From Heptranchias perlo (taxonomy: Eukaryota): a DNA stretch of 64,000 nucleotides. The DNA lies in the NCBI RefSeq assembly GCF_035084215.1, contig NC_090345.1, positions 26,102,001 through 26,166,000 on the forward strand, read 5' to 3'. Below are positions 99 to 52,745 of the stretch, piece by piece; positions within the stretch are counted from its first letter, which is position 1, and every line of letters begins with the position of its first letter. A program made the translations under genes and the position numbers. Below the pieces are notes generated by a model. It saw only the letters and a list, made by a program, of their open reading frames with translations, ran no database searches and was not told the DNA's origin.

Positions 99-260
99 TT
101 TTTTTTCATTATTCATTCTCAGGATGTGGGCGTTGCTGGCATTGGCGGCATTTATTGCCCATCCCTAGTCACCCTTGAGTAGGTGGTGATAGGCCTTTTT
201 GCTTGACTAGCTGCAGTCCGTGTGGTGAAGGTGCTCCCACAATGCTGTTAGGTAGGGAGT
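99..260 (-). mobile_element. 3' fragment of the tRNA-headed LINE family
   Basis: Reverse complement of the 3' end seen at 15000-15154, with poly-T at 99-106. Confidence 0.75.
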
Positions 261-723: not shown

Positions 724-3034
724 CTACATGCAGATTAGGATGAAATTCAGTTACTGCAGAATTAATTGCCTACAATAAACATTTTGGATGGCAGTGATCG
801 CCTTTACAATCATGAATCAATCCCTGCATTACAGCACATTCCACAAAACCATTATTTTCACAGTAATAATATTTTCATGGGCTGCCTGTTGAAAATATTT
901 CTACTGCAAAAATAACCAGGTGTATAATACATTTATATGTACAAAACACAGAAAATACAACTCGATTGTCTATTACAACATGTTGGTATAAAAATTCTAC
1001 CATGAATTTCACTGTGTTATTTGAACCAAGTATTATTCAAACTATTCAGGCTACCATTGTTATAAAAATCTCAAATTCCATCAAGCTTCATCAACAGTAT
1101 TTTCAGCACTGAATCGCACTTGCCTCTTATACAATTTATAAAGTTAATATCTCTCTTTGGATACTGATGTACAATGATTCTGTAAAAAAGAGTTGTCCAA
1201 AAGAAATTGCTGACTAGCCACAGGTGTGGCTACGGCGACACCATTTTAACCATGTGCACTAACTTTAGTAGTGGCCTCATATTGGCTCTGATATTTATGG
1301 GGAGGCGGCGAGGGTGCGGGGAGCAACCCAGCGAGGCGGGGAATGCAGAGGTCCTGCCAAATTTAACAGCGGGACCTCGTTATCATTTATTCTTCCCCGC
1401 CCGGCAGCCGGCCAAATTGATAGCCTATGTGGCTGCAGAGCGAAGAAAACAGCAGCAGGAGAATGCGGCTGTGGACCCTTGAGGACAGTCCCTGGCAATT
1501 GGGAGGGAGGGGGTCGGCCAGGATCGCAGCAATGAGAGAGGCATTGGGCCTTTTTTGTTTGGTGGGGGGGGGGGTGGGGAGGTCAGCGATTGCGGCAAAA
1601 GGGAGAGAGAGGCCATGATTGCTGTGGTGAGGCTGACGGCTTCCTTGAGGGGCTGGGGGAAGCACTCCTGCTCCTCCTGGCACACATGGAGTGCTGTAAA
1701 AGGCACATACCATCTTGGGGCCGGCAGCCCCCGCCTCTCTTTCACTGCCGAGTTTCCCGAACCCTGGGAAACCCACGCAGCAACTGTAAAATTTAAATTG
1801 GGCTCCCAGTTTCACTGTGGGAACCCGACTTAAATATGTTAATGAAGTGTCCTGCCTTTCCACAACGGGACACTCGGACCAACCGCTGTAAAAACGGCAA
1901 CGAGCGCATATTCGGCGGTTTGGGGACACATTCTCTGGGGTTAATATCGAGGCCATTATATGAATAAACATACAATTGTTCTCCAAAACAGTAGGCTCTA
2001 AAGAACCATAAGTCAACAAAAGTTCATCAGTTATGGAGCAATTAATTTCAGGAATACTACAGTTGTAATAAATTGGAATATTGTACAATAGGTAACATTA
2101 TAACATTTTAGAATTACTTCAGGATTAACTTCAGCTTCTATTTGGTCTCATATTTATAATAAATGTTATTATTGAAAAATAAAAATTTATGCAACTTTAT
2201 CCTTTTGAAAAAAGTGATGCAAAGGTATGGATTTAATAAACTGCAACTATAAATGTTTCTGAGTTTCTTACAGTTTTCTCTCAATAGGTTTTATTTAATC
2301 GTCTTGATTTGCCAGTTTTTCTGCTCTTTTGCATAAAACATCTATTTCCAGTGCCAATTAAAATATAATTCTGATCCTTTTCAAATTTATAATCCCCAAT
2401 ACAAAATTTTGCAAGTTATCAGTGCGTCAACTTCTGTACTTACTGTGCTATAATTTGGATGTCTTAGTGGACATACACTAGCTCTTCTCAGAATCTGACA
2501 ACTAATACATTATAGCTGATAACTTTTAAACATTCAATTTTTCATTGCCCTCTTTACCTTCCTTGATAAGTCTTGAAGTGATACAAATTCAAATGATAAA
2601 ACAGGAATTAAAGTTGCTTGAAGGTCAAGTGAAGCAAATTCCTGATAACAAAAATAGTCCAAATTAGATTACATCACAAAATTCTCATTTCTTTTCATAT
2701 GCAATTAGACCTGTAGCTGATTCAAGTACAATCTTCCACTGAAAATGCCCACTCCAAAATCACATTAAATACATGGAGGCTAATTGCGATATTTTATGGC
2801 AAGATAATCTTAACAAGAAACTAACCTACAACAATGAAATCTATTACATTGAATAAATAACCATTCTATAATAGCAGTTTCAGTGTTTCAGTTAGTTGGC
2901 ACAATACACAAACACAACTGGGACATACTGATATAAAATAACATCAAAATCAATGCTTTCAGGCCACTCACCTGAACATATGGATCAAGTCCCAATTCTC
3001 CTTCTTTGGGATCTTTAAGTAAAAGGACTTTCAT
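627..3034 (-). CDS. UROS: Uroporphyrinogen-III synthase, 5' part; coding exons 3034-2972, 2641-2558, 723-627; continues beyond left edge
   Basis: Spliced translation [81 protein letters not shown] matches the vertebrate UROS N-terminus; GT-AG boundaries, exon sizes 63/84/97; head-to-head with BCCIP as in human. Confidence 0.95.
1271..1956. mobile_element. Probable non-autonomous DNA transposon (MITE-like)
   Basis: GC-rich block in AT-rich intron bounded by imperfect inverted termini GTGGCCTCATATT / AATATCGAGGCCAT, TA on each side; no credible ORF. Confidence 0.4.
2558..2641 (-). CDS. UROS: UROS second coding exon
   Basis: tcag|GAATTT...AAG|gtaaag, 84 nt, [11 protein letters not shown] motif. 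Confidence 0.93.
2972..3034 (-). CDS. UROS: UROS first coding exon ([21 protein letters not shown])
   Basis: ATG at 3034, donor CAG|GTGAGT, likely acceptor near 3057. Confidence 0.93.
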
Positions 3035-3059
3035 TTCTCACACTTAATCAGTATTCCTA

Positions 3060-3580
3060 CTATCAACAGAATGGAATTACAAATAACTAAACTGCTTGGA
3101 GCACAACTGAAACTAACAGACCCATATTTCATTATAACAAGATAACAGCATGTCAAATAGTTAGGCGTCAATGTCTTCTTTTGTAACAATGCCCTCTATT
3201 AAGGAATGGATAACATTATCTAAAGGTCTCACTCAAATTCAAGACTTTCACTGCAGTCAGTGAACCACCCATTTCAACAAATGTCTTCTATGATAAGCCT
3301 TTATTGTTGAGGCCAACAGGTCAGTTAGTGCCTGTCTGAATCTCTCTTTCTAGAAAATGTTGCTTCAGATACTCAGTGGGGTGACTGTCTATCATTGCTG
3401 AAAAAGTAAATGTTTGAAGAAATAATTGCACAGTACATGTGTGTATCTTAGAATCATATTATTAAAATAGAGCACTTGATACTTCGGTTAGACGAATGCA
3501 GTTCAAAAACTTTTAAAAAGTTTAACTTTTACGGTATCATTATCAAAGGAGTGTAGCTGTGATAGTTCCTTTATCATTCA
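3060..3580 (-). promoter_or_regulatory. Candidate erythroid-specific UROS promoter (GATA cluster)
   Basis: 8 WGATAR sites in about 520 bp plus CACCC boxes directly upstream of the first coding exon. Confidence 0.55.
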
Positions 3581-5379: not shown

Positions 5380-6320
5380 ATTCACAGTACGTCTCTGTGC
5401 CGCTCAATGTAGGTATCTCTCACTCCTAAGCGTTTCTATATCTTTGTCTGTTTCATACAAAGTGTGTATATGTATTCACATCAGTCAGAGGATTTCTTAC
5501 TTTGTGTGTGTCTCAGTTACTCACTCAAAGTATTCCATCTCGGTGTCACTTTATGTGTAATTGTCATTCACTATTTCTTTGTCATTCTGTATGCACCTGT
5601 CATTCAGTATGTAGCTGTCACTGTTTCTATCACTCTGTATGTATTTGTGAGTTACACTGTTTCTGTATCTCTTTACACATGTCACTCATGGTTTATGTGG
5701 CTCTATATGTAGCTGACACTCACACTGTTTCTGTGTCCTTATGTTGCTCTATGTATTGGACACTCACTCAGTATGTACCTCTCATTCACTCTATGTCCCT
5801 GTGTCATTCTGCATGTATTTGTTTCTGTGTCAGTGTGCATTTCACTCACATTTTGTTCCTACATCACTCTGTCACATATTTTTGTCATTCTGTATATACC
5901 TGTCACTCACATTATTTTCATTACTATATGTACCTGTCACTCATTGCTTCTGTGTCCCTGTATGTTTATCACTCACTGTCCCAGTACTCTGCATGTATCT
6001 GACACTCATTGTTTATGTGTCATTCTATATATTTATATTTGTCACTCACTATCCCTATCACTCTATATGTGTGTCACTTATTGTTTGTGTCATTCTATAT
6101 GTTTGTCACTTGCTGTCCCTGTCACTATGTATGTCATTTATTGTTTCTTTGTCACTATCCTCTGTACGTACCTGTCACTCATTGTTTGTGTTATTTTATG
6201 TTTGTCACTCACTGTCCCTGTCACTCTATTTGTACCTCTCACTCACTGTGTCATTCTATGTTGTCACTCACTGTCCCTGTCACTCACACATTTTGTATGT
6301 TTCTCACTCACTCACTGACA
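5380..6320. repeat. Degenerate tandem/low-complexity repeat (TGTCACTCA and TGTGTCATTCTATAT units)
   Basis: Recurrent short units; produces spurious Cys/His/Leu-rich ORFs in all plus frames. Confidence 0.85.
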
Positions 6321-6329
6321 GCAGGCCCC

Positions 6330-6620
6330 TACCACCAATGACGTTACCGGAGTGCAGTAACTCGCTGGTTCTGTTGGGGGTCTAAGTTCGCAGATGATGG
6401 GCTGCTCCAAATCGTCATTGGGCCAAGCGGAAGAATAGATCAGTCACTAGTAGTCAGGAGCCCGTTCGCATAATACAGTATAAAAGATAATTTTCAGAAG
6501 AAACAAGACTGGTCAAGGACACGTCAACAGATTAGCAGCTGTAATTTCTCGCTCCCTAAATGGTAGGCTCCGGGACAGTGTACTTCCGCTGACAGCGCGC
6601 GCAGGAAGATGGCGTCCTTC
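6330..6620. promoter_or_regulatory. CpG-rich bidirectional promoter UROS/BCCIP
   Basis: Local CpG enrichment, ETS cores (CGGAAG near 6428, CTTCCG near 6583), GCGCGCGC NRF1-like run, YY1-type AAGATGGCG over the BCCIP ATG; possible minus-strand donor CCG|GTAACG at 6347 for a non-coding UROS exon 1. Confidence 0.7.
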
Positions 6621-6725: not shown

Positions 6726-9700
6726 GTGAGGAGCTAACTGGAGCCGCTCAACCGCCGCCTCACGTGGGGCCGCAGATCGAACTCTAAAGCAGCTCGAGCG
6801 CAGTGGCTTCGAGACTCCGGAACCACGTGGCTAGAAGCGCGAGGTACGGTGCAGAGAGGTACACGTAGAATGCAGACAGATATACACATACTGTGGGTGG
6901 GAGGGATATACGTATACATATACGGGAGTGAGTGAGTGGGAGAGAAATGTATACACACGGGGGGAGGTACGGACGGGAGTGGGTGGGGAAAGAGATATAT
7001 TCACACGAGAGGGGGGTGGGCAGAGAAGAGGGGGGAGGGAGAGGCGGACAAGGGGACGTGTTGTGACGCAGAACATTATGTATGGAGAGGGCTTTGCCAG
7101 GATCATATATATATATATATGTGCATAGAGGGAGAGGGAACCCTGCCCACCTGCAAAATAGCAGCTCTATCCGCTTGGCTCTAAATGCGATCAAGGCAGT
7201 GTCCTAGGCCCAACCATCTTCAACTGCTTCATCAACGACCTTCCCTCCTTCATAAGGTCAGAAATATGGACGTTTGCTGATGATTGCACAGTGTTCAGTT
7301 CCATTCACAACCCCTCAGATAATGAAGCACTTTGTGCCTGCATGCAGCAAGACCTAGACTGATAAGTGGCAAGTAACATTCGCACCAGACAAGTGCCAGG
7401 CAATGACCATCTCTAACAAAAGAGAGTCTAACCACTTCCTCTTGACATTCAACGGCATTACCACCGCCGAATCCTCCACCATCAACATCCTGGGGGGTCA
7501 CCATTGACGAAAAACTTAACTGGACCAGCCACATAAATACTGTGGCTACAAGAGCAGGTCAGAGGCTTGGTATTCTGTGGCGAGTGACTCACCTCCTGAC
7601 TCCCCAAAGCTTTTCCACCATCTACAAGGCACAAGTCAGGAGTGTGATGGAATACTCTCCACTTACGAGTGCATCTCCAACAACACTCAAGAAGTACGAC
7701 ACCATCCAGGACAAAGCAGCCCGCTTGATTGGCACCCCATCCACCACCCTAAACATTCACTCCCTTCACCACCGGCGCACCGTGGCTGCAGTGTGTGCCA
7801 TTTACAGGATGCACTGCAGCAACTCGCCAAGGCTTCTTCGACAGCACCTCCCAAACCTGTGACCTCTGCCATCTAGAAGGACAAGGGCAGTAGGCACATG
7901 GGAGCAACACTACCTGCACGTTCTCCTCTAAGTCACACATCATCCTGACTTGGAAATATATCGCCGTTCCTTCATTGTCCCTTCCTAACAGCACTGTGGG
8001 AGAACCTTCACCACACGGACTGCAGCAGTTCAAGAAGGCAGCTCACCACCTTCTCAAGGGCAATTAGGGATGGTAAATAAATGCTGGTGTTGCCAGCGAC
8101 GCCCACATCCCATGAACAAATATATTAAAAAATGTGACCAGGATTTGACTGTTTCCCGTCAGCTCACTCATAACAACTGAGTCTCATTCAACTGGAGACT
8201 CCATCATTGTTTGTTATTTATAACAATGAGTGTGCTGCCAGGCATTATATCAGGGTGTCCAAACTATGGCCCGGGGTTCATTCCCAACCTTTGAGGCCTG
8301 GCAGTTTGGCCCAAGAAGCTTAGGTAACTTGTATATGTGCTTAAAGTTCTTATTCACTGGTTTTGTGGGTCTGGAAATTTGGAAAGGGTTGTCCTTAGCA
8401 CCGTGACCTCATTGTTTGATAAATTCTAAATCAAAACACCCGTTAGTATCGGCAGTTTGAGATGCATGCATATTAATGGAAACATTAATTCAAACTTTAT
8501 ACGTGGCCCACAAAGGCACAAAGCATTTTTGCTTTGCATGGCTTTTTCTGATAAACTATTTATTGCAATGAATATGACTGTGGCTTGCAGTGATTGGTGT
8601 CATCAGCAATACACATTTACAAATATTTCTATTCCACAGGAGGTGCAAGTAGATTTTGAAGCACATACTATATCTGACAATGATTATAATGGAATCAAGA
8701 AACTGCTACAACAGGTAACTTGGAATATCTGAAAATATTATAAAGTAGAAAGTTTTTGGGTGGCTAAGTTAATGTATACTTACCACAGTTGTAATGATGC
8801 ACTCTATTATCTTTTTATTTGCAGTTATTTCTTAAGGCCAGTATAAACACCGCTGAACTAGCTGGTATCATTATACAGCAGAATCATGTTGGAAGTGTTA
8901 TTCGGGTAAGGTAACTGGTTACAAAATAAGTTCTTAAATTCTATGACAATGTACCAGATCAGAACTGAGGGAAAGAATAATGCTTGTGTTTAACAAAACA
9001 CTACTGTTGTTTTTGATCTTCATCAGCATCGCTGGAATAGGTTGATGAACTCGGACAGAGTTGAAGTTGACTTTCAGATAAATTTAACCTAATCAAAATT
9101 AAGTTTTACAGTTTTTTTTATAAACTTACATGATAGCAATAACGCTGCAAAGTGAAGGAGCTGTGCACATTTACTGTTGAGAAACACTTTGGGGAGAGAG
9201 CATTCTGTACTTGCATAAATTTGGTTTGAAAAATACAAAGAACATTCACGTTTAGGGATCTCTGTGTAACTAAAAATATTTTTCTGACATAATACATAAT
9301 TTACTTAGAAGCAACATTTCACTGAGTGAAAAATGTACCACAGCTGATTTAGCAATAACATTTTCCTTGAGCAAAACAATTATTCATCCACTGTGTAAAA
9401 TCCATTGGCATCAATACAAGTAGAGCATTCCCTGGTATTTTTTTTTCTAGGAGTACAATTTGCTAGTTACAGAATTTTCTCTTGTGGCCTCAGTGTTTCA
9501 TACCATTAATATGATTTCATCAATACAAGTAAGAGACCTGTTGAAAGATAGAGCAGTTATATTATGAGCAGATGACATTTGTTTAGTGTCACTACGATGA
9601 CTTCCTCAAACACCAGCAATGGATCTATATTATTTGTAGTCCTGTTTCAAAGCCGTAATGTAACAGAGTTTAGGCTGCATAGCAAGCAGATGCTGTTTAG

Positions 9701-12700
9701 GAGGTGTATAATTGTCATGGACACCTGTATGTACAAAGCATATTCTCCTCTAACGTGCAGTGAAATAAATCCTGGTATTGCTACATTACCCCTTCAGGTC
9801 AATTATACAAGGACAAGGGCATTCTGGCAGTTTGAAATTGTACCACTTTCATGCACGTTGTCAAAAGAATAAAACAGAAAATGTTGGAGATGCACAGCAG
9901 GTTGATGATCTGAAGGAGAAAGATATGTTAATGTTTCAGGTGTGGTGCTTTATCAGAATGTATTTATTATTATCTACCTTATTTCTGCCAACAAAATCTT
10001 TATATTTTTCCAGACACTTGTATTTATTGTAAGAATGATACTGGAGTGTGTTGCAAGCTAGAGGTGCATCTTGAGATTAGGATAATGAGAACTGCTCTTG
10101 TCTTGTACAATCTTGATATTATTGTCGTGTAGTGTGCCATTTGGTAACCTGTAAATAGTACACTATAATATTTATAGTACATATTTACTGGAATAAAAGG
10201 GCTTGTTTTAGGTGTGTATGATTTCTGGAAGAAATCTGGATGTAGAGGAGATAACTGCTGATGAGATTCAAAAGAAAACTGGATATATATCATGTCACAT
10301 GATGCATTGTACTTCCTGGTATTAAATGGAAGTAGAACTTTTTATGTTTGGCTTAGCATGGATATGGGTCTCGCTGTATGGTATAACTGGATTATTTTAT
10401 ATTTTAAAGCAAGCTGAGATATTGGATGAAAGTGGTGATGAAGCCGACGAAGATGATGTCTTTGGGTTCATCAGTGTTTTAAATCTGACTGAAAGAAAGG
10501 CAAGTACACCATACATTATCTGAGTTGACCAGAAAGTTGCATTACATTTGGGAGTGAATTATTCATCATGCTGGATTTGCATGTGAAATGACAGCTTAAT
10601 AGTCTATATGTTATCCAGTTATTTTCTTGTTTTGCTTGATTGCTTTGAAAATCCTCTTAAGGACCCAAATATTTAGCAATATTGTAGACCATGACTAAGT
10701 TCAACTTTTTGAGGTTCATGAAATATAAGGGTGTGTGCCAAATAGCTGTGATCAAAATTCCTTTGGTGCTTTGCCCTGGAGACAGGGTCAGTCAGCATAG
10801 ATTTGTAAAAGGCAGGTAATGTTTGATCTTTTTTTGGAAAATTGCAGTGTGTAGATAAAGGGAATGTAATATATGGATGGATGTGTGTGTGAATATGTAT
10901 GTATATACATCTCCACATGAGAGGTTTGTTACAAAAATTAGAGCGCATGGTATTAAAGAAATGAAGCTGCATGGAACGGCTAGGGGACAGAGATCAAAGA
11001 ATAGGGTAACTGGGTGTTTTTTGGATTCACAGGATGTAGGTAGTAGTGTGCCCCAGGGATCTGTGCTGGAATGTCAAGTTCTCCTTTTCCATAACTGATT
11101 TAACCATATGCACAATGGGAATTAGATCAAAGTTTGCTGATGATGTCAATTAGGTGGCATGGCAAAGTGTGATGAAGAATGTAAGAGATTGTAGGAAGAT
11201 ATAGTTTGGTGGAGTGGACAGATAAGTGTCAGATGCAGTTCAATGTGGACTAATGGGATGAGTAAGATCATAAGAAATAGGAACAGGAGTAGGCCATAGG
11301 GCCCCTCGAGCCTGCTCCGCCATTCAATAAGATCATGGCTGATCTTCTACATCAATTCCACTTTCCTGCCCTATCCCCATATCCCTTGATTCCCTTAGTG
11401 TCCAAAAATCTATCGATCTCAGTCTTGAATATACTTAATGACAGAGCAACCACAGCCCTTTGGGGTAGAGAATTCCAAAGATTCACAACCCTCTGAGTGA
11501 AGAAATTTTTCTTCATCTTGGTCCTAAATGGCCGAACCCTTATCTTGAGACTATGACCCCTTGTTCTAGATTCTCCAGCCAGGGGAAACAGCCTCTCAGC
11601 ACCTAACCTGTCAAGCCCTCTAAGAAATTTATACGTTTCAATGAGATCACCTCTCATTCTTCTAAACTCCAGAGAATATAGGCCCATTCTACACAATCTC
11701 TCCTCATAGGACAACCCTCTCATCCCAGGAATCAATCTAGTGAACCTTCGTTGCACCGCCTCTAAGGCAAGTACATCCTTCCTTAGATAAGGAGACCAAA
11801 ATTGTACACAGTACTCCAGATGTGGTCTCACCAGAGCCCTATATAATTGCAGCAAGATCTCCTTACTCTTGTACTCCGACCCCCTTGCAATAAAGGCTAA
11901 TTTATTGCAAGGGGGTTGGAGGGGTACAATAGCATAGTGGTTATGTTACTGGACGAGTAATCCAGAGGCCTGGACTAATAATCTGGAGTTATGAGTTCAA
12001 ATCCTGCCACGGCAGCTGGGGAATTTAAACTCAATTAATTAAATAAAACCTGGAATTTAAAAAAAAATACTATCAGTAATGGAGGCCATGAAACTACCGG
12101 ATTGTCGTAAAAACCTATCTGGTTCACTAATGTCCTTTTAGGGAAGGAAACCTGCCGTTGTTACCCGGCCTGGCCTATGTGTGACTCCGGACCCACAGCA
12201 AAATGGTTGATTCTTAATCGCCCTCTGAAATGGCCCAGCAAGCCACTCAGTTGTACAATACAGAAAGTCACAATAAGAATAAAACCGGACGGACCACTAG
12301 GCACCGGACATGACAAAGGCAAACCAAGCCTAGTCGATCCTGCAAAGTCTTCCTCACTAACATCTGGGGACTTGTACCAAAATTGGGAGAGCTGTCCCAA
12401 AGACTAGTCAAGCAACAGCCTGACATAGCCATACTCACAGAATCATACTTTTCAGCAATGTCCCGGACTCTTCCGTCACCATCCCTGCTATTTCCTGTTC
12501 CACCGGCAGGACAGACACACCAGAGGTGGCGGTACAGTGATATACTGTATGGAGGGAGTGGCCCTGGGAGTCCTCAACATTGACTCCGGATCCCATGAAA
12601 TATCATGGCATCAGGTCAAACATGGGCAAGGAAACCTCCTGCTGATTACCACCTACCGCCCTCCCTCAGCTGATGAATCAGTCCTCCTCCATGTTGAGCA

Positions 12701-15700
12701 CCATTTGGAGGAAGCATTGAGGATAGCAAGGGCACAGCATGTACTCTGCTTGGGGGAATTCAATGTCCATCACCAAGAGTGGCTCGGTAGCACCGCTACT
12801 GACCGAGCTGGCTGAGTCCTGAATGACATAGCTGCCAGACTGGGCCTGCGGCAGGTGGTGAGTGAACCAACACGAGGGAAAAACCTACTTGATCTTGTCC
12901 TCTCCAATTTACCTGTTGCAGATGCATCCGTCCATGACAGTATTGGTAGGAGTGACCACCGCACAGTCCTTGGGGAGTGCCACACACTATCCAAAGTGTG
13001 TGGCACTACCACCGTGCTAAATGGGATAGATTCAGAGCAGATCTAGCAGCTCAAAACTGAGCATCCATGAGGCGTGGTGGGCCATCAGCAGCAGCAGAAT
13101 TGTATTCCAGCACAATCTGTGTAACCTCATGGCCCGGCATAATCCTCACTCTACCATTACCAACAAGGCAGGGGATCAACCCTGGTTCAATGAGGAGTGT
13201 AGAAGAGAAAGCCAGGAGTAGCACCAGGCGTACCTAAAAATGAAGTGCCAACCTGGTGAAGCTACAACACAGGACTACATGCATGCTAAACAGCGGAAGC
13301 AACATGCTATAGACAGAGCTAAGCGATTCCACAACCAACAGATCAGATCAAAACTCTGCAGTCTTGCCACATCCAGTCGTGAATGGTGGTGGACAATTAA
13401 ACAACTAACGGTAGGAGGAGGCTCCGTGGACATCCCCATCCTCAATGATGACAGAGCTCAGCACGTGATTGCAAAAGACCAGGCTGAAGCGTTTGCATCC
13501 ATCTTCAGCAGTGCCGAGTGGATGATCCATCTTGGCCTCCTCCCGATATCCCCATCATCACAGAAGCCAGTCTTCAGCCAATTCGATTCACTCCACGTGA
13601 TATCAAGAAACAGCTGAGTGCACTGGATACAACAAAGGCTATGGGCCCCGACAACATCCTGGCTGTAGTGCTGAAGACTTGTGCTCAAGAACTAGCCGCA
13701 CCTCTAGCCAAATTGTTCCAGTAAGCTACGACACTGGCATCTACCCAACAATGTGGAAAATTGCCCAGGTATGTCCTGTCCACAAAAAGCAGGACCATTC
13801 CAATCCGGCCAGTTACCGCCCCATCAGTCTACTGTCAATCATCAGCAAGGTGATGGAAGGTGTCGTCGACAGTGCTATCAAGTGGCACTTACTCACCAAT
13901 AACCTGCTCAGTTTGGGTTCCGCCAGGACCACTTGGTTCCAGACCTCATTACAGCCTTGGTCCAAACATGGACAGAAGAGCTGAATTCCAGAGGTGAGTT
14001 GAGAGTGACTGCCCTTGACATCAAGACAGCATCTGACCGAGCGTGGCACCAAGGAGCCCGAGTAAAATTGAAGTCAATAGGAATCGGGGGGAAAACTCTC
14101 CAGTGACTGGAGTCAGACCTAGCACGAAGGAAGATGGTAGTGGTCATTGGAGGCCAATCATCTCAGCCGCAGGACATTGCTGCAGGAGTTCCTCAGGGCA
14201 GTGTCCTAGGCCCAACCACCTTCAGCTGCTTCATCCCTCCATCATAAGGTCAGAAATGGGGATGTTCGCTGATGATTGCACAGTATTTAGTTTCATTCGC
14301 AACCCCTCAGATAATGAAGCAGTCCGTGTTTGCATGCAGCAAGACCTGGACAACAACCAGGCTTGGGCTGATAAGTGGCAAGTAATATTTGCGCTAGACA
14401 AGTGCCAGGCAATGACCATCTCCAACAAGTGAGAATCCAACCACCTCCCCTTGACATTCAGCGGCATTACTATCGCCGAATCCCCCACCATCAACATCCT
14501 GGGGGTCACCATTGACCAGAAACTTAACTAGACCAGCCACTTAAATACTGTGGCTACAAGAGCAGGGCAGAGGCTGGTGTGTGACTCACCTCCTGACTCC
14601 CCAAATCCTTTCCACCATCTACAGTGCACAAGTCAGGAGTGTGATAGAATACTCTCCACTTGCCTGGATGATTGCAGCTCTAACAGCACTCAAGAAGCTC
14701 CACACCATCCAGGACAAAGCAGCCCGCTTGATTGGAACCCCGTCCACCACCCTAAACATTCATTCCCTTCACCACCGGCGCACCCTGGTTGCAGTGTGTA
14801 CCGTCTAGAGAATGCACTGCAGCAACTCGCCAAGGCTTCTTCGACAGCACCTCCCAAACCCGCGACCTCTACCGCCTAGAAGGACAAGGGCAGCAGGCAC
14901 ATGGGAACAACACCACTTGCACGTTCCCTTCCAAGTCACACACCATCCCGACTTGGAAATATATCGCTGTTCCTTCATTGTCGCTGGGTCAAAATCCTGG
15001 AACTCCCTACCTAACAGCACTGTGGGAGAACCTTCACCACACGGACTGCAGCGGTTCAAGAAGGCGGCTCACCATCACCTTCTCTGCAATTAGGGATAGG
15101 CAATAAATGCTGACCTTGCCAGCAACGCCCATGTCCATTGAACGAATAAAAAAATATATATTACCCGCAATCCAGCGAGCCCTAATCTTGTGTGGCACCT
15201 TATCGAATGCCTTTTGAAAATCCAAATCTACTTCATCCACTGGTTTCCCTTTATCTACCCTGCTAGATACACCCTCAAAAAATTCGAATAGATTTGTCAA
15301 ATATAATCTCCCTTTCACAAAACCGTGTTGAGTCTGCCTAATAATATTCTGATTTTCTAAGTGCCCTGATTCTACATCATTAATAATAGATTCCAGCATT
15401 TTTCCTTTTACTGATGTCAGGCTAACCGGCCTAAAGTTCCCTGTTTTCTTTTTTTCCCCCCTTTCTTGAATAGCCGGGTTACATTTGCTACCTTCCAATC
15501 TACGGAGACCATTCTAGAATCTAGAGAATTCTGGAAGATCAAAACCAATGCATCCATTATCTCTGCCGCCACCTCTCTTTTAAAACCCTAGGATGTAGGC
15601 CATCAGGTCCAAGGGATTTGTCGGCTTTTAGTCCCATTAATTTCTTCAGTAATCTTTCTTTACTAATATTAATTACTTTAAGTTCCTCACTCTCATTAGA

Positions 15701-18700
15701 CCCTTGGTTCTCTACTATTTCTGGTATTTTTTTTATGTCTTCTACTGTGAAAACAGATACAAAATATTTGTTTATTGTCTCTGCCAGTTCCTTATTCCTC
15801 ATTATAATTTATCCTGTCCCTGCCTCCAAGGGATCCACATTTACTTTCACTAAACTCTTCCTTTTTACATATTGAGAAGAAGCTCTTACAATCTGTTTTT
15901 ATATTTCTTGCTAGTTTACTCTCATTCAGTTTTCTCCTCCTTTTATTAATTTCTTGGTCATCCTTTGCTGATTTCTAAAACCCTCCCAATCCTCAGGCTT
16001 GCAACTCTTTGGCAACGTTGTAAGCCTCGTTTAATCTAATACTATCCTTAACTTCTCTAGTTAGCCACGGTTGGATTACTTTTCCTCTGGAGTTTTTATT
16101 TCTCAAGGGAATGTATATCCGTTGAGAATTATGAATTATTTCTTTAAACGTTCGTCATTGCTTATCTACTGTCATATCTTTTAATCTAATTTCCCAATCT
16201 ACCTTAGCCAACCCACCCCTCATACCTATGTAATTGCCTTTGTTTAAATTTAAGACCCTAGTTTTGGCCTTAACTACATTGCTCTCAAACACAATATGAA
16301 ATTCGATCATATTATGATCATTCTGCCCCAGAGGATCCTTAACTGTAAGATTACTAATTAACCCTGTCTCATTACACAATACTAGATCTAAAATAGCCTG
16401 TTTCCTAGTTGGCCCCTCAACATATTGTTCTAGAAAACTGTCTCGCATGCATTCCATGAACTCATCCTCTGAATTACTTTTGCCAATTTGGTTTGCCTAG
16501 TCTATGTGAAGATTAAAGTCCCCCACGATTATTGCATTAATCTTGTTACTTGCTCCTCTAATTTCCTGATTTATACTCTGTCCAACACTACAACTACTGT
16601 TAGGAGGCCTATAAACTACTCCCACTGGTGTTTTCTGCCCCATGTTATTTCTTAGCTCCACCCATACTGATTCTACATCCTGATTTTCTGAGCTAAGATC
16701 CTTTCTCATTACTGCCTTTATCTCATCCTTGATTGTCAGGGCTAGCCCCCCTCCTTTGCCATTTTGCCTGTCTTTTCTAAAAGTCAAGTACCATGGCATA
16801 TTTAGTTCTGAACCTTGGTCACCCTGCAACCACGGCTCAATCCCATTTATCTCTATTTGTGCCATTAATTCATCTATCTTGTCACGAATGCTTTGTGCAT
16901 TCCGATATAACGCCATTAATTTTAACTTAGTATTTTTTCCCTGATGTGACCTTAGTCACTAATACCCTATTATCTTTGTTACACTCTCTGTCCCTTCCTG
17001 ACACACTACTTGTTTTTACCCAAATCGCTACTCTGCACTACAGCCTTGACTTTTCTCTTTAGACTTATTTTTACCCTTACCTGAACCCTCCCCCACTCCC
17101 ACCCCCCTTATTTTTTTTTATTTGTTCAGGTGATGTGGGCATCGCTGACTAGGCCAGCATTTATTGCCCATCCCTAATTGCCCTTGAGAAGGTGGTGGTG
17201 AGCCGCCTTCTTGAATCGTTGCAGTCCATGTGGTGAAGGTTCTCCCACAGTGCTGTTCGGTAGGGAGTTCCAGGATTTTGACCCAGCGACGATGAAGGAA
17301 CGGCGATATATTTCCAAGTCGGGATGGTGCGTGACTTGAAGGGGAACATGCAGGTGGTGTTGTTCCCCATGTGCTTGCTGCCCTTGTCCTTCTAGGTGGT
17401 AGAGGTCGCAGGTTTGGGAGGTGCTGTCAAAGAAGCCTTGGTGAGTTGCTGCAGTGCACCCTGTGGATGGTATACGCAGCAGCCACAGTGCGCCGGTGGT
17501 GAAGGGAGTGAATATTTAGGGTGGTGGATGGGGTTCCAATCAAGCGGGCTGCTTTGTCCTGGATGGTGTGGAGCTTCTTGAGTGTTGTTGGAGCTGCACT
17601 CATCCAGGCAAGTGGAGAGCATTCCATCACACTCCTGACTTGTGCCTTGTAGATGGTGGAAAGGCTTTGGGGAGTCAGGAGGTGAGTCACTCGCCGCAGA
17701 ATACCCAGCCTCTGACCTGCTCTTGTAGCCACAGTATTTATGTGGCTGGTCCAGTTAAGTTTTTGGTCAATGGTGACCCCCCCCAGGATGTTGATGGTGG
17801 GGGATTCGGCGATGGTAATGCCGTTGAATGTCAAGGGGAGGTGGTTAGACTCTCTTGTTGGAGATGGTCATTGTCTGGTTATAAGTTTTAAGCCCTATTT
17901 ACCACCCTAGTTATTCGATTCGTCAGGACACTGGTCCCAGCCCTGCTTAAGTGACTCCGGTCCCAAAGGAACAGCTCCCTCTTTACCTAGCACTGGTGCC
18001 AGTGCCCCATGAGTTGAAATCCCTTCCACCCGCACCACTCTTTCAACCACGCATTTAACCATCTAACCTGTTTGTCCCTATGCCAGTTTGCGTGTGGCTC
18101 AGGTAGTAATCCAGAGATTATTACCTTTGAGGATCTTTTTAATTTGGACCCTAGCTCCTTAAACTCCCTCAGCGGAATCTCATTCCTAGTTCTACCTATG
18201 TCGTTGGTTTCTACACGGACCACGACAACTGGATCCTCTCCCTCCTTCTCCAAGTTCTTCTCCAGTTGCGAGGAGATGTCCTTAACCCTGGCACCGGACA
18301 GGCAACACAGTCTTTGGGACTCCCGGTCGCGGCTGCAGAGAACAGTATTTATCCCCCTGACTGTACTATCTCCTAACGCTACTACATTCCTTTTCACTCC
18401 CACCACTTGAATAGCCTCTTGTACCACGGTGCCATGGTCAATTTGCCCATCCTCCCTGCAGTCTTTGTTCTCATCCACACAGGTAGCAAGTACCTCGTAC
18501 CTGTTGAACAAAGGCTGAGGCTCGTCCACCACTGGATCTGGGGTCCCCTTACCTGCCTGACTCGCAGTCACATCCTTCTATCCCTGACCACTAATCAAAT
18601 GTAAACAACTACCTAACCTAAGGGGTGTGACTGCCTCCTGGTTCAAAGTGTCCAGGTAACTCTCCCCTCCCTGATGCATTGCAATGTCTGCACCTTGGTC

Positions 18701-21700: not shown

Positions 21701-23773
21701 ACAACACAGTTTGACATACTATTATGGGATGGCTGAAAAGTATGATCTGGCAGCTCAAAATTGGGCATCCATAAGACGCTGTGGGTCGCTGCCAGCAGCA
21801 GAATTGCATTCTGCCAGTTTGTGACCTCATGGCTTGGCACATTCCTTCACTACCAAGCTGCTAAATAAACCCTGGTTCAATGGGGAGTGTAAAAAGGCAT
21901 GCTAAGAGCAAGATCAGACGTACCATATAATGAAGGAAACCTACAATCCTGGGCTACTTACATCTTAAACACCAAAAGCAGATAAGTGGTTCCATAACCA
22001 ATAGGTCAGAGCAAATCTCTGATAACAAATTAGAGGGCATGGCAAATTGTGAAACAGAATGCAAGAGATTACAGGAAGATATAGTGTGGTGGAGTGGACA
22101 GATAAGTGGCAGATGCAGTTTGATAGACAAATGTAATGTGTACATTTTGGGAACAAGAACTGTGCAAGGAACTATACCCTAAATGGTTAGATTCTTAATA
22201 GAATGTAGGAGCAGAGGGATCTATGGGTGTAAATATGTAGATCTTTTAAAGTGGGAGTGCAGGTAGAACAGGCCATAAAATGGTAAATTAATTTCCTGCA
22301 AACCACCTTCTTCAGGCAGCTGGAGATATGCAGTGACTGGATTTGCCTGCGTAGCCCACATTCTGAGAACTGCGTATGAAAGGTTAGGTAGATTTTGGGG
22401 AATGTGTCTCCCAGTCATTGTGGTCTCTTAGAGCTTGTTTATTCACCTTTCAGAGTTTTTTTCCCTCTCCCAGAAGATTGCTTAGGTGGGGAGGGGATGT
22501 AGAGGATGGTGCTGATGTTGTACAATGACAGTATGGGACAGATTTAATGGACCAGCTTGCCTTTACCTGTCCTTTTTTGTATGGTTGTGCAAGGAAAATT
22601 TTAAAAAATCCAATACTGCTGGAGTAGAGGGATGTTGTTTTGAGGTTGAAGTTAAGAAATTGTCACACTATTTATGCTTCACCTAACAATGTGCTGTCAA
22701 TGCTGGCACTGTTACACAAAATGGAAGTGTTTCTTCCATTTTGCAGCACCAAGTGTCGTTGCCTTGAGCTCAGAAATTCAAAACAAAGCAATGGAATAAA
22801 GCGTGATCCAATCGACTGGTGCAAACCTGCATGTGTAAAAAATATTTCTTTCTCTCTCATCCCCTCCTCACTAGCCCAACAACTTACTAGCTAATGACAC
22901 TGCTGTCTAGTGGATTCAGGCTGGTGGTGAGGAAATATTGTGAATTTGAAGGATATGTACAATTACTAGAATGACTTACTTTATTTGCACGGTAGCACAT
23001 TAATGCACTTGTAATGCTTTGTTAAAATAATTGCACTTTCGTTTGCCATCCCATTTGTATGCAGTGTACCTATCTCATCAAATTTTTCCTAGTATTGTTA
23101 TTTTTGATTGATTCCCGTACCATTTTGAATGTGTTTAGGGCTGAATTGATTGATGCCCAGAGAACCAATAAACCTTGTGGCAAGAGTCATTATTACCTTA
23201 TGATCAGCAAGACCTGTGTGGAAGTGGGAAAGAAAAACAAGCCACAGCAAAAGGGCAAGCAGAAAGAAGAATTAATGTTTGCAAATGCAGAAGAGGAGTT
23301 CTTTTATGAGGTGAGTTTCCCTTCCCCTTCAAAAAAGTCTTTGTATTTGGTAGGTTAAACCAATTATGCTATAAGCTTATCTTGGCAAGAAAGTGAATGA
23401 AGTTATATGTTGATGCTGTTTATCACCAAAATGCTTGTATTGCATGGCTGGGTATTGTGTTTTAATGATATCTGCATATTAGAAAAAAAAAATCAAACAA
23501 TGCAGATTAGGGATTTTTTTAAAGCTGAAGCAGCACATCAATTTATTTTGTTAAATTTTTTAGTATGATTTTCCAGTTCTCAATTATCTGCCTTTGTTCT
23601 AGCAAGCTATTATGAAATTCAGCTACTCTGTGGCAGAGGAGAGCGATAGCTGTCTGACTGGACGCTGGTCTTTTGGTGACATTCCTATGAAACCTCTTCG
23701 CACAGTTATGCTAATTCCAGCTGACCGCATAAATGCAGTAATGGACAAACTCGAAGAATATCTAGCGATATAA
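6609..23773 (+). CDS. BCCIP: BRCA2 and CDKN1A-interacting protein (beta-type C-terminus), 296 aa; exons 6609-6725, 8640-8714, 8825-8905, 10410-10499, 20971-21155, 23139-23310, 23603-23773
   Basis: Open spliced frame of 891 nt: MASFTKRR...EVQVDFEAHTISDNDYNGIKKLLQQLFLKA...VFGFISVLNLTERKG...SERFINVPPQ...MFANAEEEFFYE...PLRTVMLIP...EEYLAI*, matching BCCIP/BCP1. Confidence 0.97.
7192..8132 (+). mobile_element. 5'-truncated copy of the tRNA-headed LINE family (RT C-terminus and 3' UTR)
   Basis: QGSVLGP, FADD and LHHRRTVAAVC remnants, family 3' hairpin and A tail; near-identical to 14195-15154. Confidence 0.9.
8640..8714 (+). CDS. BCCIP: BCCIP exon 2
   Basis: cag|GAGGTG...CAG|gtaact, 75 nt. Confidence 0.95.
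8825..8905 (+). CDS. BCCIP: BCCIP exon 3
   Basis: cag|TTATTT...CGG|gtaagg, 81 nt. Confidence 0.95.
9866..9960 (-). mobile_element. Decayed Penelope-type short element with degenerate hammerhead motif
   Basis: Minus strand TTCTGATAAAGCACCACACCTGAAACATTAAC followed by CCTGCTG...CATTTTCTGTTTT, resembling shark PLE-derived repeats (from recall). Confidence 0.5.
10410..10499 (+). CDS. BCCIP: BCCIP exon 4 (GC donor)
   Basis: aag|CAAGCT...AAG|gcaagt, 90 nt. Confidence 0.93.
10890..11262 (+). mobile_element. Old CR1 LINE, left part (resumes at about 18800)
   Basis: PHERFVTKIRAHGI, VPQGSVL and KFADD remnants. Confidence 0.8.
11263..11900 (-). mobile_element. CR1 LINE, 3' part of a near full-length copy (ORF2 C-terminus and 3' UTR)
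   Basis: ORF 11352-11855 [21 protein letters not shown]...RGDLIETYK...WNSLP. Confidence 0.92.
11922..15154 (+). mobile_element. Full-length tRNA-headed single-ORF LINE (APE endonuclease + RT), frameshifted
   Basis: A box 11930-11940, B box 11993-12004, ATG 12230, APE motifs LTNIWGL / PDIAILTESY / YRPP / GEFN / SDH, RT motifs YRPISLLS / VPQGSVLGP / FADD, 3' hairpin and A tail. Confidence 0.92.
15155..17105 (-). mobile_element. CR1 LINE, middle part (ORF2 endonuclease to RT N-half)
   Basis: [54 protein letters not shown]. Confidence 0.92.
17110..17880 (-). mobile_element. 5'-truncated copy of the tRNA-headed LINE family, inserted between CR1 ORF1 and ORF2
   Basis: Reverse complement of 14410-15154; ORF 17427-17834. 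Confidence 0.9.
17881..18800 (-). mobile_element. CR1 ORF1 remnant (CxxC/coiled coil plus SGNH esterase)
   Basis: HICSKCLQLKELQL upstream; VALGDSTVRG, CLSGARVKDI, VVVRVETNDIG esterase blocks in ORF 17987-18571. Confidence 0.88.
18801..19515 (+). mobile_element. Old CR1 LINE, right part with 3' tail
   Basis: Continues 10890-11262; CVQFWAP remnant and GGGCCAAATGG...CCTGTGCTG tail. Confidence 0.8.
20971..21155 (+). CDS. BCCIP: BCCIP exon 5
   Basis: tag|GGAACG...CA|gtaagg, 185 nt. Confidence 0.95.
21720..22030 (+). mobile_element. Old internal fragment related to the tRNA-headed LINE family
   Basis: Aligns by eye with 13020-13350 (GATCTGGCAGCTCAAAA, GCAGCAGAATTG, AACCCTGGTTCAATG). Confidence 0.65.
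22063..22280 (+). mobile_element. CR1 fragment matching 11186-11262 joined to 18801-18940
   Basis: Direct similarity across the nested-insertion junction. Confidence 0.75.
23139..23310 (+). CDS. BCCIP: BCCIP exon 6
   Basis: tag|GGCTGA...GAG|gtgagt, 172 nt. Confidence 0.95.
23603..23773 (+). CDS. BCCIP: BCCIP exon 7 to stop
   Basis: tag|CAAGCT...ATA TAA, 171 nt. Confidence 0.95.
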   Translation, partial: QAIMKFSYSVAEESDSCLTGRWSFGDIPMKPLRTVMLIPADRINAVMDKLEEYLAI

Positions 23774-24175: not shown

Positions 24176-49327
<25,152 letters not shown>

Positions 49328-49399
49328 GGCAGCGACAGTGTGCATAAAGAGAGCCAAGTAGACCGTGCGGAACTATCAGATACAATATTTGTACTGTTA

Positions 49400-50074: not shown

Positions 50075-51475
50075 ACTACAACAACGATAACTTGCATATA
50101 TATAACGCCTTTAACGTAGGATAACGTCCTAAGGCGCTTCACAGGAGAGTTATCAAACAAAATTTGAGGCCAGCCACATAAGGAGATATTAGGATGGGAA
50201 AGCTTGGTCAAAAGAGTTAGATTTTAAGGAGCGTCTTAAAGGAGGAGAGGTAGAGTGGTGGAAGAGTTTAGGGAGGGAATTCCAGAGATTAGGGCTTCTG
50301 CAGCTGAAGACACAGCCGCCAATGGTGGAGTGATTAAAATCGCAAGAGGCCAGAATTGGAGAAGTGCAGAGATCTTGGAGGGTTGTGGGGCTGGAGGAGG
50401 TTACAGAGATAGGGAGGTGTGGGGCCATGGAAGGATTCTACAACAAGGATGAGAATTATAAAATTGAGGCGTTGCCAGACTGTGAGGCAATGTAGGTCAG
50501 TGAGCACAGAGCTTAAATTTATGGAGGGTGGAAAATGGGAGGCCGGCCAGGAGAGCATTGGAATAGTCGAGTCTAGAGATGTTAAAGGCACGAATGAGGC
50601 TTTCAGCAGCAGATGAGCAGAGGCGGGGCGGAGACGGGAGATGTTACAGAGGTGGAAGTAGGCGGTCTTGGTAATGGAGTGGATATGGGGTTGGAAGCTC
50701 ATCTCAGGGGCAAATAGGAATCCAAGGTTGTGAACAGTCTGATTCAGCCTCTGATTTGGTGTCGTGGTGTCCTGGCCCATATTTATCCCTCAACCAACAT
50801 CACTAAAATAGATTATCTGGTCATTATGAAATTGCTGTTTGTGGGAACTTGCTGTGCGCAAATTGGCTGCCCTGTTTCTTACATTACAACAGTGACTATA
50901 CTTCAAAAATACTTCATTGGCTGTAAAGCGATTTGGGACATCCTGAGGTCATGAAAAGCGCTATATAAATGCAAGTCTTTCTTCTTTCTTTCTGAAAGTG
51001 ACCAGGGAGAGGGATGGAGTCAGTGGCTAGGGAATGCAGTTTGTGGCAGGGACCAAAGACAATGGCTTCGGTCTTCCCAATATTTAGTTGGAGGAAATTT
51101 CTGCTCACCCAGTACTGGATGTCGGACAAGCAGCATGACAAATCAGAGGCAGTGGAGGGGTCGAGAGAGGTGGTGGTGAGGTAGTGCTAGGCATCATCAG
51201 CGTACATGTGGAATGTGACATTGTATTGTCAGATGATGTTGCCGAGGGGCAGCATGTAGATGAGAAACAGGAAGGGACCAAGACTGGATCCTTGGGGGAC
51301 TCCAGAGGTAAAGGTGCAGGAGCAGGAAGAGAAGCCATTGCAGGTGACTCTATGGCTACGACTGGATAGGAATGGAACCAAGCAAGGGCAGTCCCACCGA
51401 GCTGGACAATGGAGGAGAGGCATTGGAGGAGAACAGTGTGGTCAACCATGTCAAAGGCTGCAGACAGATGGAGAA
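50075..51475 (-). mobile_element. L2-like LINE, 5'-truncated, interrupted by a SINE
   Basis: TSGVPQGSSLGPFLFLIYMLPLG, NFLQLNIGKTEAIVFG, TAYFHLCNISRLRP. Confidence 0.9.
50755..50990 (+). mobile_element. Deu-SINE 3' half inserted in L2
   Basis: GGTGTCCTGGCCCATATTTATCCCTCAACCAACATCAC...GCGCTATATAAATGCAAGTCTTTC. Confidence 0.8.
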
Positions 51476-51729
51476 GGACTTATCAACCTAAAGCGCGTCT
51501 TACCTTCACTTTTTAATGAGATTGAAAAGAATAAAATAAACTATGTAAGTTAGGAAATATTAATTCTGTTAGTTCGAGTTTATTTTGAAAGCCCGAGGAT
51601 TGCAGGAGGGGAAGTAAAGAATTCCACGGTTTTGCGATCCTGGGTAAGGAAGCAAACTGCCATGAATCTTGATTTCAAGACAGTAGGGATGTAGTGAAGA
51701 GACAGATCTTGTCGGCCTTCACTAGCACC

Positions 51730-52745
51730 TCTCATCCTTACTCCTCTTCTTCATCTACATGCTGCCCCTTGGTGACATCATCTGCAGACATGGGATCAGC
51801 TTCCACATGTACGTTGACGACACCCAGCTCTACGTCTTCACCCTGTTTCGATCCGTCCGATGCCTCTGTGTTGTCAGATTGCTTGTCCGACATCCAGTCC
51901 TGCAATTTCCTCCAGCTAAACATTGGAAAGACTGACGTCATCATCTTCAGACCCGACCACAAACTCTGTATCCTTGCTGATTCCATCCCCCTCTCCAGCC
52001 ACTGTCTTAGGTTGAACCAAACTGTTTGCAATCTCAGCATCCTATTTGACCCCGAACTGAGCTTCTGACCCCATATCCTCTCCATAACAGAGACCACCTA
52101 CATCAACCTCCATAACATTGCCCGCTTCTGCCCCAGCCTCAGCCCATCTGCCTCTGAAGATCTCATCCATGCCTTTGTCGCCTCCAGACTCAATTGTTCA
52201 ATCATCACCTGGCCAGCCTTCCATCCTCCACCCTTCATAATCTTCAGCTCATCCAAAACTCTGCTGCCCCTATCCTATTCTGCACCAAGTCCAACTCACC
52301 CATCACCTCTATCCTTGCTAACTGATCTGGTTCCCAGTACTCTAACATCTCCAATTTAAAATCCTTATCCTCATGTTTAAATCTCTCATGGCCTTGCCCT
52401 CTCCTATTGCTGTAACTGTATCCATCCCTACAACCTCCCCCACCTCCATGAACTCTGCGTTCCTCTGATTCTCCCTTCATGTGAAATCTCCCCACTCCTT
52501 GTCCCATCATTGGCTGCTGTGCCTGCAGTCATCTAGGCCCTAGGCTCTGGAATTCCCTCCACAAACGTCTCCACCTCTCCTACTTTAAGGCTCCCCTTAA
52601 AATCCACTTATTTGACCAAACTTTTCGTCACCCCTCCTAATATCTCGTTGGGCTCCACCTCCATTTTTGTCTGATTAGTCTTCTGTGAAGTGCCAAGGGA
52701 CGTTTTTCTACTTTAAAGGAGCTATGCAAATACAAGTTATTGTTG
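51730..52745 (+). mobile_element. L2-like LINE, 5'-truncated
   Basis: LLFFIYMLPLG, YVDDTQLY, NFLQLNIGKT; L2-type tail. Confidence 0.9.

What the first reader, a model, noticed from the sequence alone, without database searches (positions are those of the whole stretch)
11922..15154. tRNA-headed, single-ORF LINE: candidate Pol III-transcribed autonomous retrotransposon
Seen: the element starts with a tRNA-like head (A box TAGCATAGTGG, D-arm AGCATA/TATGTT, anticodon arm CTGGA-C(T/G)AGTAA-TCCAG, B box GTTCAAATC). About 225 nt later GAAATGG (12230) opens a frame leading into APE motif I (KVFLTNIWGL), then RT. There is no ORF1. A second independent copy (41757-38287, minus) starts at the same nucleotide with the same layout, so the head is integral rather than a neighbouring SINE. 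Established: LINEs normally use Pol II, tRNA heads define non-coding SINEs, and the loop CTAGTAA is that of tRNA-Thr(AGT). Inference: a SINE-LINE hybrid that drives its own EN/RT from an internal Pol III promoter. I cannot tell whether the family is already catalogued.
Basis: partly seen in the sequence, partly recalled or inferred. Interest (0 to 1): 0.88.

Follow-up and report, generated by a model that had tools for sequence, protein, structure and literature searches.

The report
Shark Zenon LINE with tRNA head
This is a decayed copy of a shark-and-ray jumping gene whose full-length, protein-coding copies begin with the tRNA-type promoter normally seen only on small non-coding SINEs, lack the T-runs that stop RNA polymerase III and lack a usable AUG start in the youngest intact copies, so it is likely a protein-coding retrotransposon made by polymerase III and translated without a cap, which has not been tested in cells.

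Summary
Observation confirmed, start codon corrected. The element is the elasmobranch Zenon LINE (CR1 group, no ORF1), whose consensus sequences appeared in a 2026 supplement; all six start with this tRNA-like head, which the paper never mentions. Here, full-length copies start at the head and none extends upstream. 14 of 20 selected loci keep stop-free EN-RT frames of 945-1006 aa, and the ORF evolved under purifying selection (pN/pS 0.11), so the family is autonomous. 13 of 14 young copies have no sense-strand TTTT in 3.3 kb; same-genome CR1 has 4-6 per kb and 34 of 35 relatives have some. The proposed ATG is cut off by in-frame stops in all 14 young copies and is mostly GTG in the oldest subfamily; the frame is likely entered without AUG near a conserved GCU behind a structured leader. 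Short SINE-like head+tail deletions exist. Pol III transcription and IRES-like translation are inferred, not shown. The head is not securely tRNA-Thr. This scan noted the tRNA-headed shark LINE five times before in other genomes; the Zenon identity and non-AUG start were not in those notes as shown.

The parts
11922..15154 (+). Full-length, decayed copy of the tRNA-headed elasmobranch Zenon LINE (mid-age subfamily)
   Evidence: 5' region matches published Zenon consensus 5' ends
11922..12010 (+). tRNA-derived head, 5' end of the element
   Evidence: 20 of 30 best loci align from base 1, the rest from bases 9-12, with unrelated upstream flanks except four segmental duplicates
11930..11940 (+). 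A box (Pol III type 2 promoter consensus, recalled)
   Evidence: sequence; 0 changes in 152 aligned bases of young copies
11949..11986 (+). Anticodon-like stem-loop and a second, similar stem-loop that widens the A-B spacing
11993..12004 (+). B box
   Evidence: sequence; 1 change in 168 aligned bases of young copies
12118..12259 (+). Conserved structured leader, candidate internal ribosome entry element; ends in a hairpin (12225-12250) with a 7-nt anticodon-like loop. The conserved GCT codon that follows in most copies is deleted in this copy
12230..12232 (+).
12260..15093 (+). Decayed single ORF: basic N-terminus, APE endonuclease (motif I 12344-12373), reverse transcriptase (FADD 14265-14276)
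15094..15154 (+). 3' UTR and short A tail, shared with the short head+tail derivatives
38287..41757 (-). Second full-length copy, same first base
40587..40823 (+). Antisense 3' fragment of the same family inserted into copy 2
7191..8122 (+). 5'-truncated copy (element bases 2272-3227)
17113..17878 (-). 5'-truncated copy (element bases 2484-3233)
102..260 (-). 3'-tail fragment
21724..21935 (+). Old internal fragment, 71% identical

Best explanation
This is an autonomous, single-ORF Zenon (CR1-group) LINE of sharks and rays whose full-length copies start at a built-in tRNA-derived A/B-box head; it is likely transcribed end to end by RNA polymerase III and likely translated from an uncapped RNA without an AUG, starting at or next to a conserved GCU codon behind a structured leader. 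Shown: the head is the fixed 5' end, the ORF encodes APE and RT and was kept by selection, the sense strand is free of TTTT, the youngest intact copies have no open AUG frame, and head+tail deletion derivatives exist. Inferred: TFIIIC binds the boxes, Pol III reads 3.3 kb into flanking T-runs, ribosomes enter internally, the protein copies the RNA by target-primed reverse transcription from the A tail (established for CR1-group LINEs), and internal deletions give ready-made SINE-like elements because the promoter travels inside the RNA.
For: Head: endonuclease-only query, 8 of 29 loci start at bases 1-9, 21 are truncated inside the element, none continues into shared upstream sequence; 15 of 20 loci chosen only for a long ORF begin with the head; the oldest subfamily starts at the same place; all six published shark/ray Zenon consensuses begin with it, with A boxes varying only as T[AG]GC[ACG]TAGTGG and B boxes [AG]GTTC[AG]AATCC in five, whereas the hagfish and coelacanth Zenon 5' ends shown lack it and hold T-runs (first 400 nt, read by eye). 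Autonomy: 14 of 20 loci with 945-1006 aa frames, Pfam EN and RT, young copies 98.1% alike, 11 synonymous vs 4 replacement differences between two subfamilies that both carry the upstream TAA (pN/pS 0.11, p 7e-5). Pol III signature: no TTTT in 13 of 14 young copies against about 20 AAAA, 12 CCCC, 6 GGGG; TTT-runs 5-6 vs 12-13 after synonymous codon permutation (p 0.0005-0.0025); CR1 of the same genome 4.3-6.4 TTTT per kb (12 copies), L2 1.3-6.9 (8 copies); TTT observed/expected 0.32, below all 35 metagenome relatives (0.61-1.68), none of which showed an A/B-box pair upstream. The folded 5' RNA pairs the B-box stretch with downstream sequence instead of forming a tRNA, fitting a DNA-level promoter. 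Non-AUG start: TAA in frame in 14 of 14 young copies, GTG at the ATG site in 17 of 27 oldest copies, 7-11 upstream ATGs; distance GCT to endonuclease is a multiple of three in 84 of 104 copies with a GCT-like site, in length classes 90-114, and in 4 of the 5 published full-length consensuses by eye; one compensatory pair U-A/A-U closes the leader's long helix; GCU is the commonest start of factorless viral IRESs (PMC12221177).
Against: No RNA 5' end, cap state or polymerase occupancy was seen. TTTT absence alone is weak against composition-keeping nulls (p 0.06-0.09); the strong signal is TTT and the contrast with other LINEs. The oldest subfamily has TTTT about 30 nt after the B box in 7 of 14 covering copies and 0.69 TTTT per kb overall. 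One unrelated metagenome relative (L209) also has none. The stingray consensus B box lacks one base. An AATAAA lies about 40 nt before the tail, as a Pol II element would have. In the mid-age subfamily of the window copy 16 of 26 copies have lost the TAG, so an AUG-open source there cannot be excluded. The spiny dogfish consensus is one base out of frame from GCT. No covariation supports either pseudoknot pairing. Young copies were selected for open frames, and all genome searches return only the best 40-150 of thousands of candidates.
Confidence: 0.6

Rival explanations
1. The head was captured once from a tRNA or SINE and now rides along as, or overlaps, an internal Pol II promoter; the LINE RNA is capped and T-poor for another reason.
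For: AATAAA near the tail; poly-A tail is a Zenon hallmark (PMC13343379); TTTT absence alone p 0.06-0.09; TTTT after the B box in half of the oldest copies; LINEs are held to be Pol II elements and Pol III to be poorly processive (PMC10886601).
Against: Boxes kept at consensus positions across sharks while neighbouring head sequence changed; T-run deficit not seen in CR1, L2 or 34 of 35 relatives; 7-11 upstream ATGs and no open AUG frame suit a capped, scanned mRNA badly.
Confidence: 0.2
2. Pol III makes the RNA, but translation starts at the leader ATG (or GTG) and reaches the ORF by stop-codon read-through or reinitiation, not by an IRES.
For: The ATG site is in frame with the ORF in 94 of 120 copies; the TAG is followed by CAA, a leaky context (recalled); termination-reinitiation is reported for SART1 and LINE-1 (PMC5972666); 16 of 26 mid-age TAC copies lack the TAG.
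Against: Two stops of different kind in the young lineage, whose ORF stayed under selection; GTG in the oldest subfamily; the whale shark consensus spacer is 8 nt, breaking the frame from the ATG but not from GCT (by eye).
Confidence: 0.12
3. Copies are read through from host Pol II promoters and the 5' end is cut by RNase P or a ribozyme at a tRNA-like structure, as ribozymes do for R2 and RTE elements.
For: The 5' end falls within one base of where a mature tRNA would start; both window copies lie among exons of a host helicase gene; 5' ribozymes are known in several LINE clades (PMC5786205).
Against: The head does not fold as a tRNA: acceptor and T stems are broken and the B-box stretch pairs downstream; ARAGORN of 14 young copies; Rfam finds no ribozyme; it does not explain the T-run deficit.
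Confidence: 0.06
4. A common SINE happened to insert in front of 5'-truncated LINEs.
For: Short head+tail elements exist.
Against: 22 of 29 best head-only hits run straight into the ORF, the junction is collinear in every subfamily and in six published consensuses, and the short forms have many different breakpoints.
Confidence: 0.02

Closest known systems
Elasmobranch Zenon elements (CarCar, HypSab, RhiTyp, ScyCan, SquAca Zenon; PMC13343379; 'CR1-Zenon like LINE' of the whale shark preprint 10.1101/443036)
   Same: Same family: about 3.3 kb, no ORF1, APE+RT, A tail; 5' 400 nt nearly identical to SquAca_Zenon-1 by eye
   Different: The paper's text has no occurrence of tRNA, Pol III, promoter or start codon, and its supplement none of tRNA; head, T-run deficit and non-AUG start are not described there
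Lepidopteran Zenon and its internally deleted derivative Persaeus (PMC6740152)
   Same: Single-ORF 3.3 kb Zenon giving short 5'+3' deletion elements several times
   Different: Persaeus has no tRNA homology and no Pol III promoter; here the deletion products carry one
tRNA-headed SINE2 with bipartite LINE parts (Bov-tA, SINE2_Gav, CoeSINE4; PMC5786205)
   Same: tRNA head plus LINE 5' part plus LINE tail, as in the short forms here
   Different: There the head was added to a non-coding LINE remnant; here the coding LINE itself has the head
RTE-1_DAn and relatives (one sentence in PMC5786205)
   Same: A LINE family noted to contain a tRNA-like sequence
   Different: RTE clade; position and function of the tRNA-like part are not given, and the name occurs in no other held paper
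Dicistrovirus intergenic (type 6) IRESs (PMC12221177, PMC10275262)
   Same: About 130-190 nt structured leader, non-AUG start, GCU first codon, anticodon-loop mimicry as a possible parallel
   Different: No pseudoknot is demonstrated here, the published loop motifs were not recognised, and the host is a retrotransposon
Chondrichthyan SINEs CmiSINE and SacSINE1 (PMC5499810)
   Same: tRNA-headed repeats of cartilaginous fish
   Different: Ala-tRNA head with CORE body or Deu body and L2 tail; non-coding; not compared by sequence here

Membership tests
Zenon (CR1 group) | Single ORF with APE and RT, no ORF1 | tested here: met
Zenon (CR1 group) | Poly-A 3' end | tested here: met
   short A tails in all 20 loci
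Zenon (CR1 group) | Sequence match to published elasmobranch Zenon | tested here: met
   a 15-nt leader motif hits 5 supplement rows, all Zenon; the first 400 nt agree by eye; the rest of each cell is cut
Zenon (CR1 group) | RT falls outside canonical vertebrate CR1, near crustacean elements | tested here: met
   43-row tree: in a 95/95 clade with Scylla and Petrolisthes proteins and unnamed metagenome proteins, apart from same-genome CR1; no named Zenon reference protein was available
SINE2 (tRNA-derived SINE) | tRNA-derived head with A and B boxes at the 5' end | tested here: met
SINE2 (tRNA-derived SINE) | Short and non-coding | tested here: not met
   3.3 kb with a selected 970-aa ORF; met only by the deletion derivatives
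Pol III type 2 transcription unit | No T4 terminator inside the transcript | tested here: met
   13 of 14 young copies none; exception near base 110 in the oldest subfamily
Pol III type 2 transcription unit | TFIIIC/Pol III occupancy and 5'-triphosphate RNA | not testable with these tools
   only contigs, no raw reads
Type 6 (IGR-like) IRES | Non-AUG start, typically GCU | tested here: inconclusive
   AUG excluded in young copies; conserved in-frame GCT; start not observed
Type 6 (IGR-like) IRES | PKI pseudoknot pairing with the triplet just before the start codon, plus PKII | tested here: inconclusive
   pairings of loop AGC with GCU and of AGGG with CCCU are possible in 85% and 93% of cells but show no subfamily-level covariation; the loop pairs GCU itself, not the triplet before it
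Type 6 (IGR-like) IRES | Factor-independent ribosome binding | not testable with these tools
   needs toeprinting or reporters
tRNA-Thr(AGT)-derived head | Best match among host tRNAs is Thr(AGT) | tested here: inconclusive
   Leu(AAG) scores higher than Thr(AGT); other isotypes not compared

The most novel reading that the evidence does not exclude
A vertebrate retrotransposon that has left the capped-mRNA pathway altogether: Pol III transcribes a 3.3 kb coding RNA from a tRNA promoter, and a tRNA-mimicking, dicistrovirus-type factorless IRES loads ribosomes at GCU, conserved from stingrays to sharks and spawning SINEs by simple internal deletion.
Probability: 0.3. Interest if true: 0.95.

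Novelty: new variant of a known kind. Interest (0 to 1): 0.8.

Why it matters
The standing division is that LINEs use Pol II and code, SINEs use Pol III and cannot (PMC10886601, PMC5786205). A natural, long-lived, selected 970-aa ORF on a Pol III unit would break that rule and show how an uncapped RNA is translated in a vertebrate. It offers a direct route for SINE birth (deletion from a Pol III LINE), a compact promoter-plus-entry module and a one-protein retrotransposon for gene-insertion work, and it makes both questions testable with simple reporters.

Tried and rejected
Target-site duplications: none consistent. Rfam scan of the window: two chance hits, no tRNA or ribozyme. Overlapping upstream frame (MWL...) as a mini-ORF1 with a frameshift: not conserved in length in published consensuses and no canonical slippery site seen. 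tRNA heads in relatives: ARAGORN 0 of 34 metagenome loci, no A/B pair in 35; many contigs may lack their true 5' end, so this is weak. Viral contigs: no relative of the protein; 48 exact hits to a 15-nt hairpin motif are at chance level and were not followed. Sequencing runs: no RNA holder listed; four guessed-RNA runs laid were contigs only and show neither start, strand nor level. Folding energy of the leader alone is not unusual (z -0.16), though the whole 5' 449 nt is (z -3.3). A PKI pairing of GGUU with the bases before GCU fits the oldest subfamily but not the young one. Pfam gave nothing on host exon frames. No earlier scan note held the words Zenon/IRES and none matched by sequence. 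Repbase and Dfam could not be searched; full Zenon consensuses beyond 400 nt and the paper's external data were not visible.
Full report
1. Observation. The window lies at G000:C24:26102001-26166000 of a 3.25 Gb genome. Copy 1 is decayed: its ATG frame stops at 12311 and the ORF is in pieces. The host is an elasmobranch by inference: a protein annotated from a sevengill shark contains a stretch of this ORF and the 5' end matches shark consensuses.

2. The head is the family's 5' end. With head plus endonuclease as query, 20 of the 30 loci fetched (of 41 matches listed) align from base 1 and 10 from bases 9-12; upstream flanks are unrelated except four segmental duplicates. To remove the bias I queried with endonuclease DNA only: of 29 non-self loci, 8 start at bases 1-9 and 21 are truncated between bases 42 and 420; no two share an abutting flank. 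Of 20 loci picked only for long open frames, 15 begin with the head and 5 are 5'-truncated. With the head alone as query, 22 of 29 loci run on into the ORF, 5 join head to tail directly and 2 end after the leader. A pattern search found 27 exact head-tail junctions with varied breakpoints, control 0, so short SINE-like forms are repeated internal deletions. An older subfamily (79-84% identity to its query copy) starts at the same place. Contigs of four other coded organisms cover all 30 bins of the element and show head-tail joints.

3. Identity. PMC13343379 (passages, section 15, supplement rows cut at 400 characters) reports Zenon elements in five elasmobranchs, ORF1-less, poly-A-tailed and absent from repeat databases. 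Its six shark/ray consensuses (2886-3314 nt) all open with this head; hagfish and coelacanth Zenon do not in the part shown. The text holds no 'tRNA', 'Pol III', 'promoter' or 'start codon'. A 43-row RT tree puts the protein in a 95/95 clade with crustacean and unnamed metagenome proteins, away from same-genome CR1, as that paper describes. Best protein homologues are 44% identical or less apart from the shark hit, and many sit on contigs of 3-4 kb. The head scores 55.5-57.5 against a host tRNA-Leu(AAG) and 46-52.5 against tRNA-Thr(AGT): tRNA-derived, isotype open.

4. Autonomy. 14 of the 20 loci hold stop-free frames of 945-1006 aa; the 973-aa example has Pfam endonuclease and RT domains. The 14 young full-length copies are 98.1% alike, 11 older ones 93.1%. 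Differences between subfamily majorities: young versus mid-age with TAA 11 synonymous, 4 replacement; versus mid-age with TAC 14 and 4; versus oldest 55 and 44; changes in single mid-age copies run 419 to 1011, as expected of neutral decay.

5. Polymerase. Pol III stops at runs of four or more T (established knowledge). 13 of 14 young copies have none in 3.3 kb, 6 of 11 older ones none, and no site is shared by more than two of the 25; the window copies have two and three. Against nulls, TTTT p is 0.011 (base shuffle) but 0.06-0.09 (dinucleotide or codon-keeping); TTT p is 0.0005-0.014 (four related copies, so one test). Controls: CR1 4.3-6.4 per kb with 15 shared sites, L2 1.3-6.9 with 7; of 35 metagenome relatives (the longer or closer of 80 loci) 34 have TTTT, and TTT observed/expected is 0.61-1.68 against 0.32 here. 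Against: TTTT near base 110 in 7 of 14 oldest copies; T-expansions at T/A junctions also arise at the tails of 5 of 20 young copies, which may explain it; an AATAAA before the tail; a one-base gap in the stingray B box. The 5' RNA folds with the B-box stretch paired downstream, not as a cloverleaf, which argues against RNase P processing.

6. Translation. Over 120 copies the ATG site is ATG in 90 of 93 main-family copies but GTG in 17 of 27 oldest; the next-but-one codon is TAG in the majority of both groups and in all six published consensuses; a second stop, TAA, is in 61 of 93 and in all 14 young copies; only 5 of 120 are open from ATG to the endonuclease. The first in-frame Met of most intact frames lies past the endonuclease start. 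Yet indels between the GCT after the leader and the endonuclease keep the frame (84 of 104). The leader is strongly conserved, has one compensatory pair between subfamilies and ends in a hairpin whose loop CU-AGC-AA has anticodon-loop form and could pair the GCU 12 nt after the stem. In factorless viral IRESs GCU is the commonest start and PKI pairs the triplet before it (PMC12221177, PMC10275262, passages), so the resemblance is partial, and no covariation backs the pseudoknots. In the window copy's own subfamily 16 of 26 copies lack the TAG through three different substitutions; that site is mutation-prone, but an AUG-open source there is not excluded.

7. Print. Ten searches found no description of a Pol III-headed coding LINE in sharks. 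[quoted passage not shown] Also seen: PMC6740152 parts 1-2 of 5, PMC5499810 parts 1-2 of 6, passages of PMC7245038, PMC10886601, PMC11481361, 10.1101/443036, PMC5972666. Subscription journals, Repbase Reports and Dfam were not searched, so priority is not established. Five earlier notes of this scan describe the same kind of element in other genomes; I saw them after my own head and T-run tests and count them as no support.

8. Verdict. A real, integral and apparently unremarked feature of a known LINE lineage. Head and autonomy: near certain. Pol III transcription: about 0.7. Non-AUG start in the young lineage: about 0.8. Both together: 0.6. Virus-type tRNA-mimic IRES on top: 0.3.

Noticed in passing
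L151-L167 (young Zenon copies): T in sense-strand TA changes 4.5% per site against 1.4% for the A of TA and 0.7% for other T, to C, G and A alike, most in CTAG; CpG decay is strand-symmetric and same-genome CR1 shows no such asymmetry. Suggests an RNA- or RT-level error signature.
   Followed up: partly
L151, L154, L160, L166, L167 tails: T-runs appear at the T/A junction before the A tail in 5 of 20 young copies.
   Followed up: no
window 48917-49372, 42174-42608, 34555-35034 (minus): Exons of a DEAH-box RNA helicase related to DHX15/PRP43 (for the middle one); copy 2 lies between them in the same orientation.
   Followed up: partly
L279-L303 (G000:C23): tRNA-Leu(TAG)-like genes in units about 4 kb apart, 92% alike within a pair and 99% between distant sites, duplicated at many places along C23; tandem 1.7 kb tRNA-Leu arrays on C38.
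   Followed up: partly
L008, L012, L015, L030 (G000:C34:3.77-3.89 Mb): Four headed copies share one flank; the one fetched at length stops near element base 886: segmental duplicates, not independent insertions.
   Followed up: partly
L152:1192-4212: A deletion in this copy puts an upstream ATG frame in line with the ORF, giving a 1006-aa stop-free frame.
   Followed up: no
L209:137-1625: A distant metagenome LINE fragment also has no sense-strand TTTT; its 5' end is missing and it is not close in the tree.
   Followed up: partly
window 5400-6400: TG/CT-rich low-complexity tract giving spurious long frames.
   Followed up: no
window 11352-11900, 15150-16950, 57200-57620, 59400-60650; 50330-52070: Canonical CR1 and L2 fragments; copy 1 is inserted inside an antisense CR1 copy.
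   Followed up: partly
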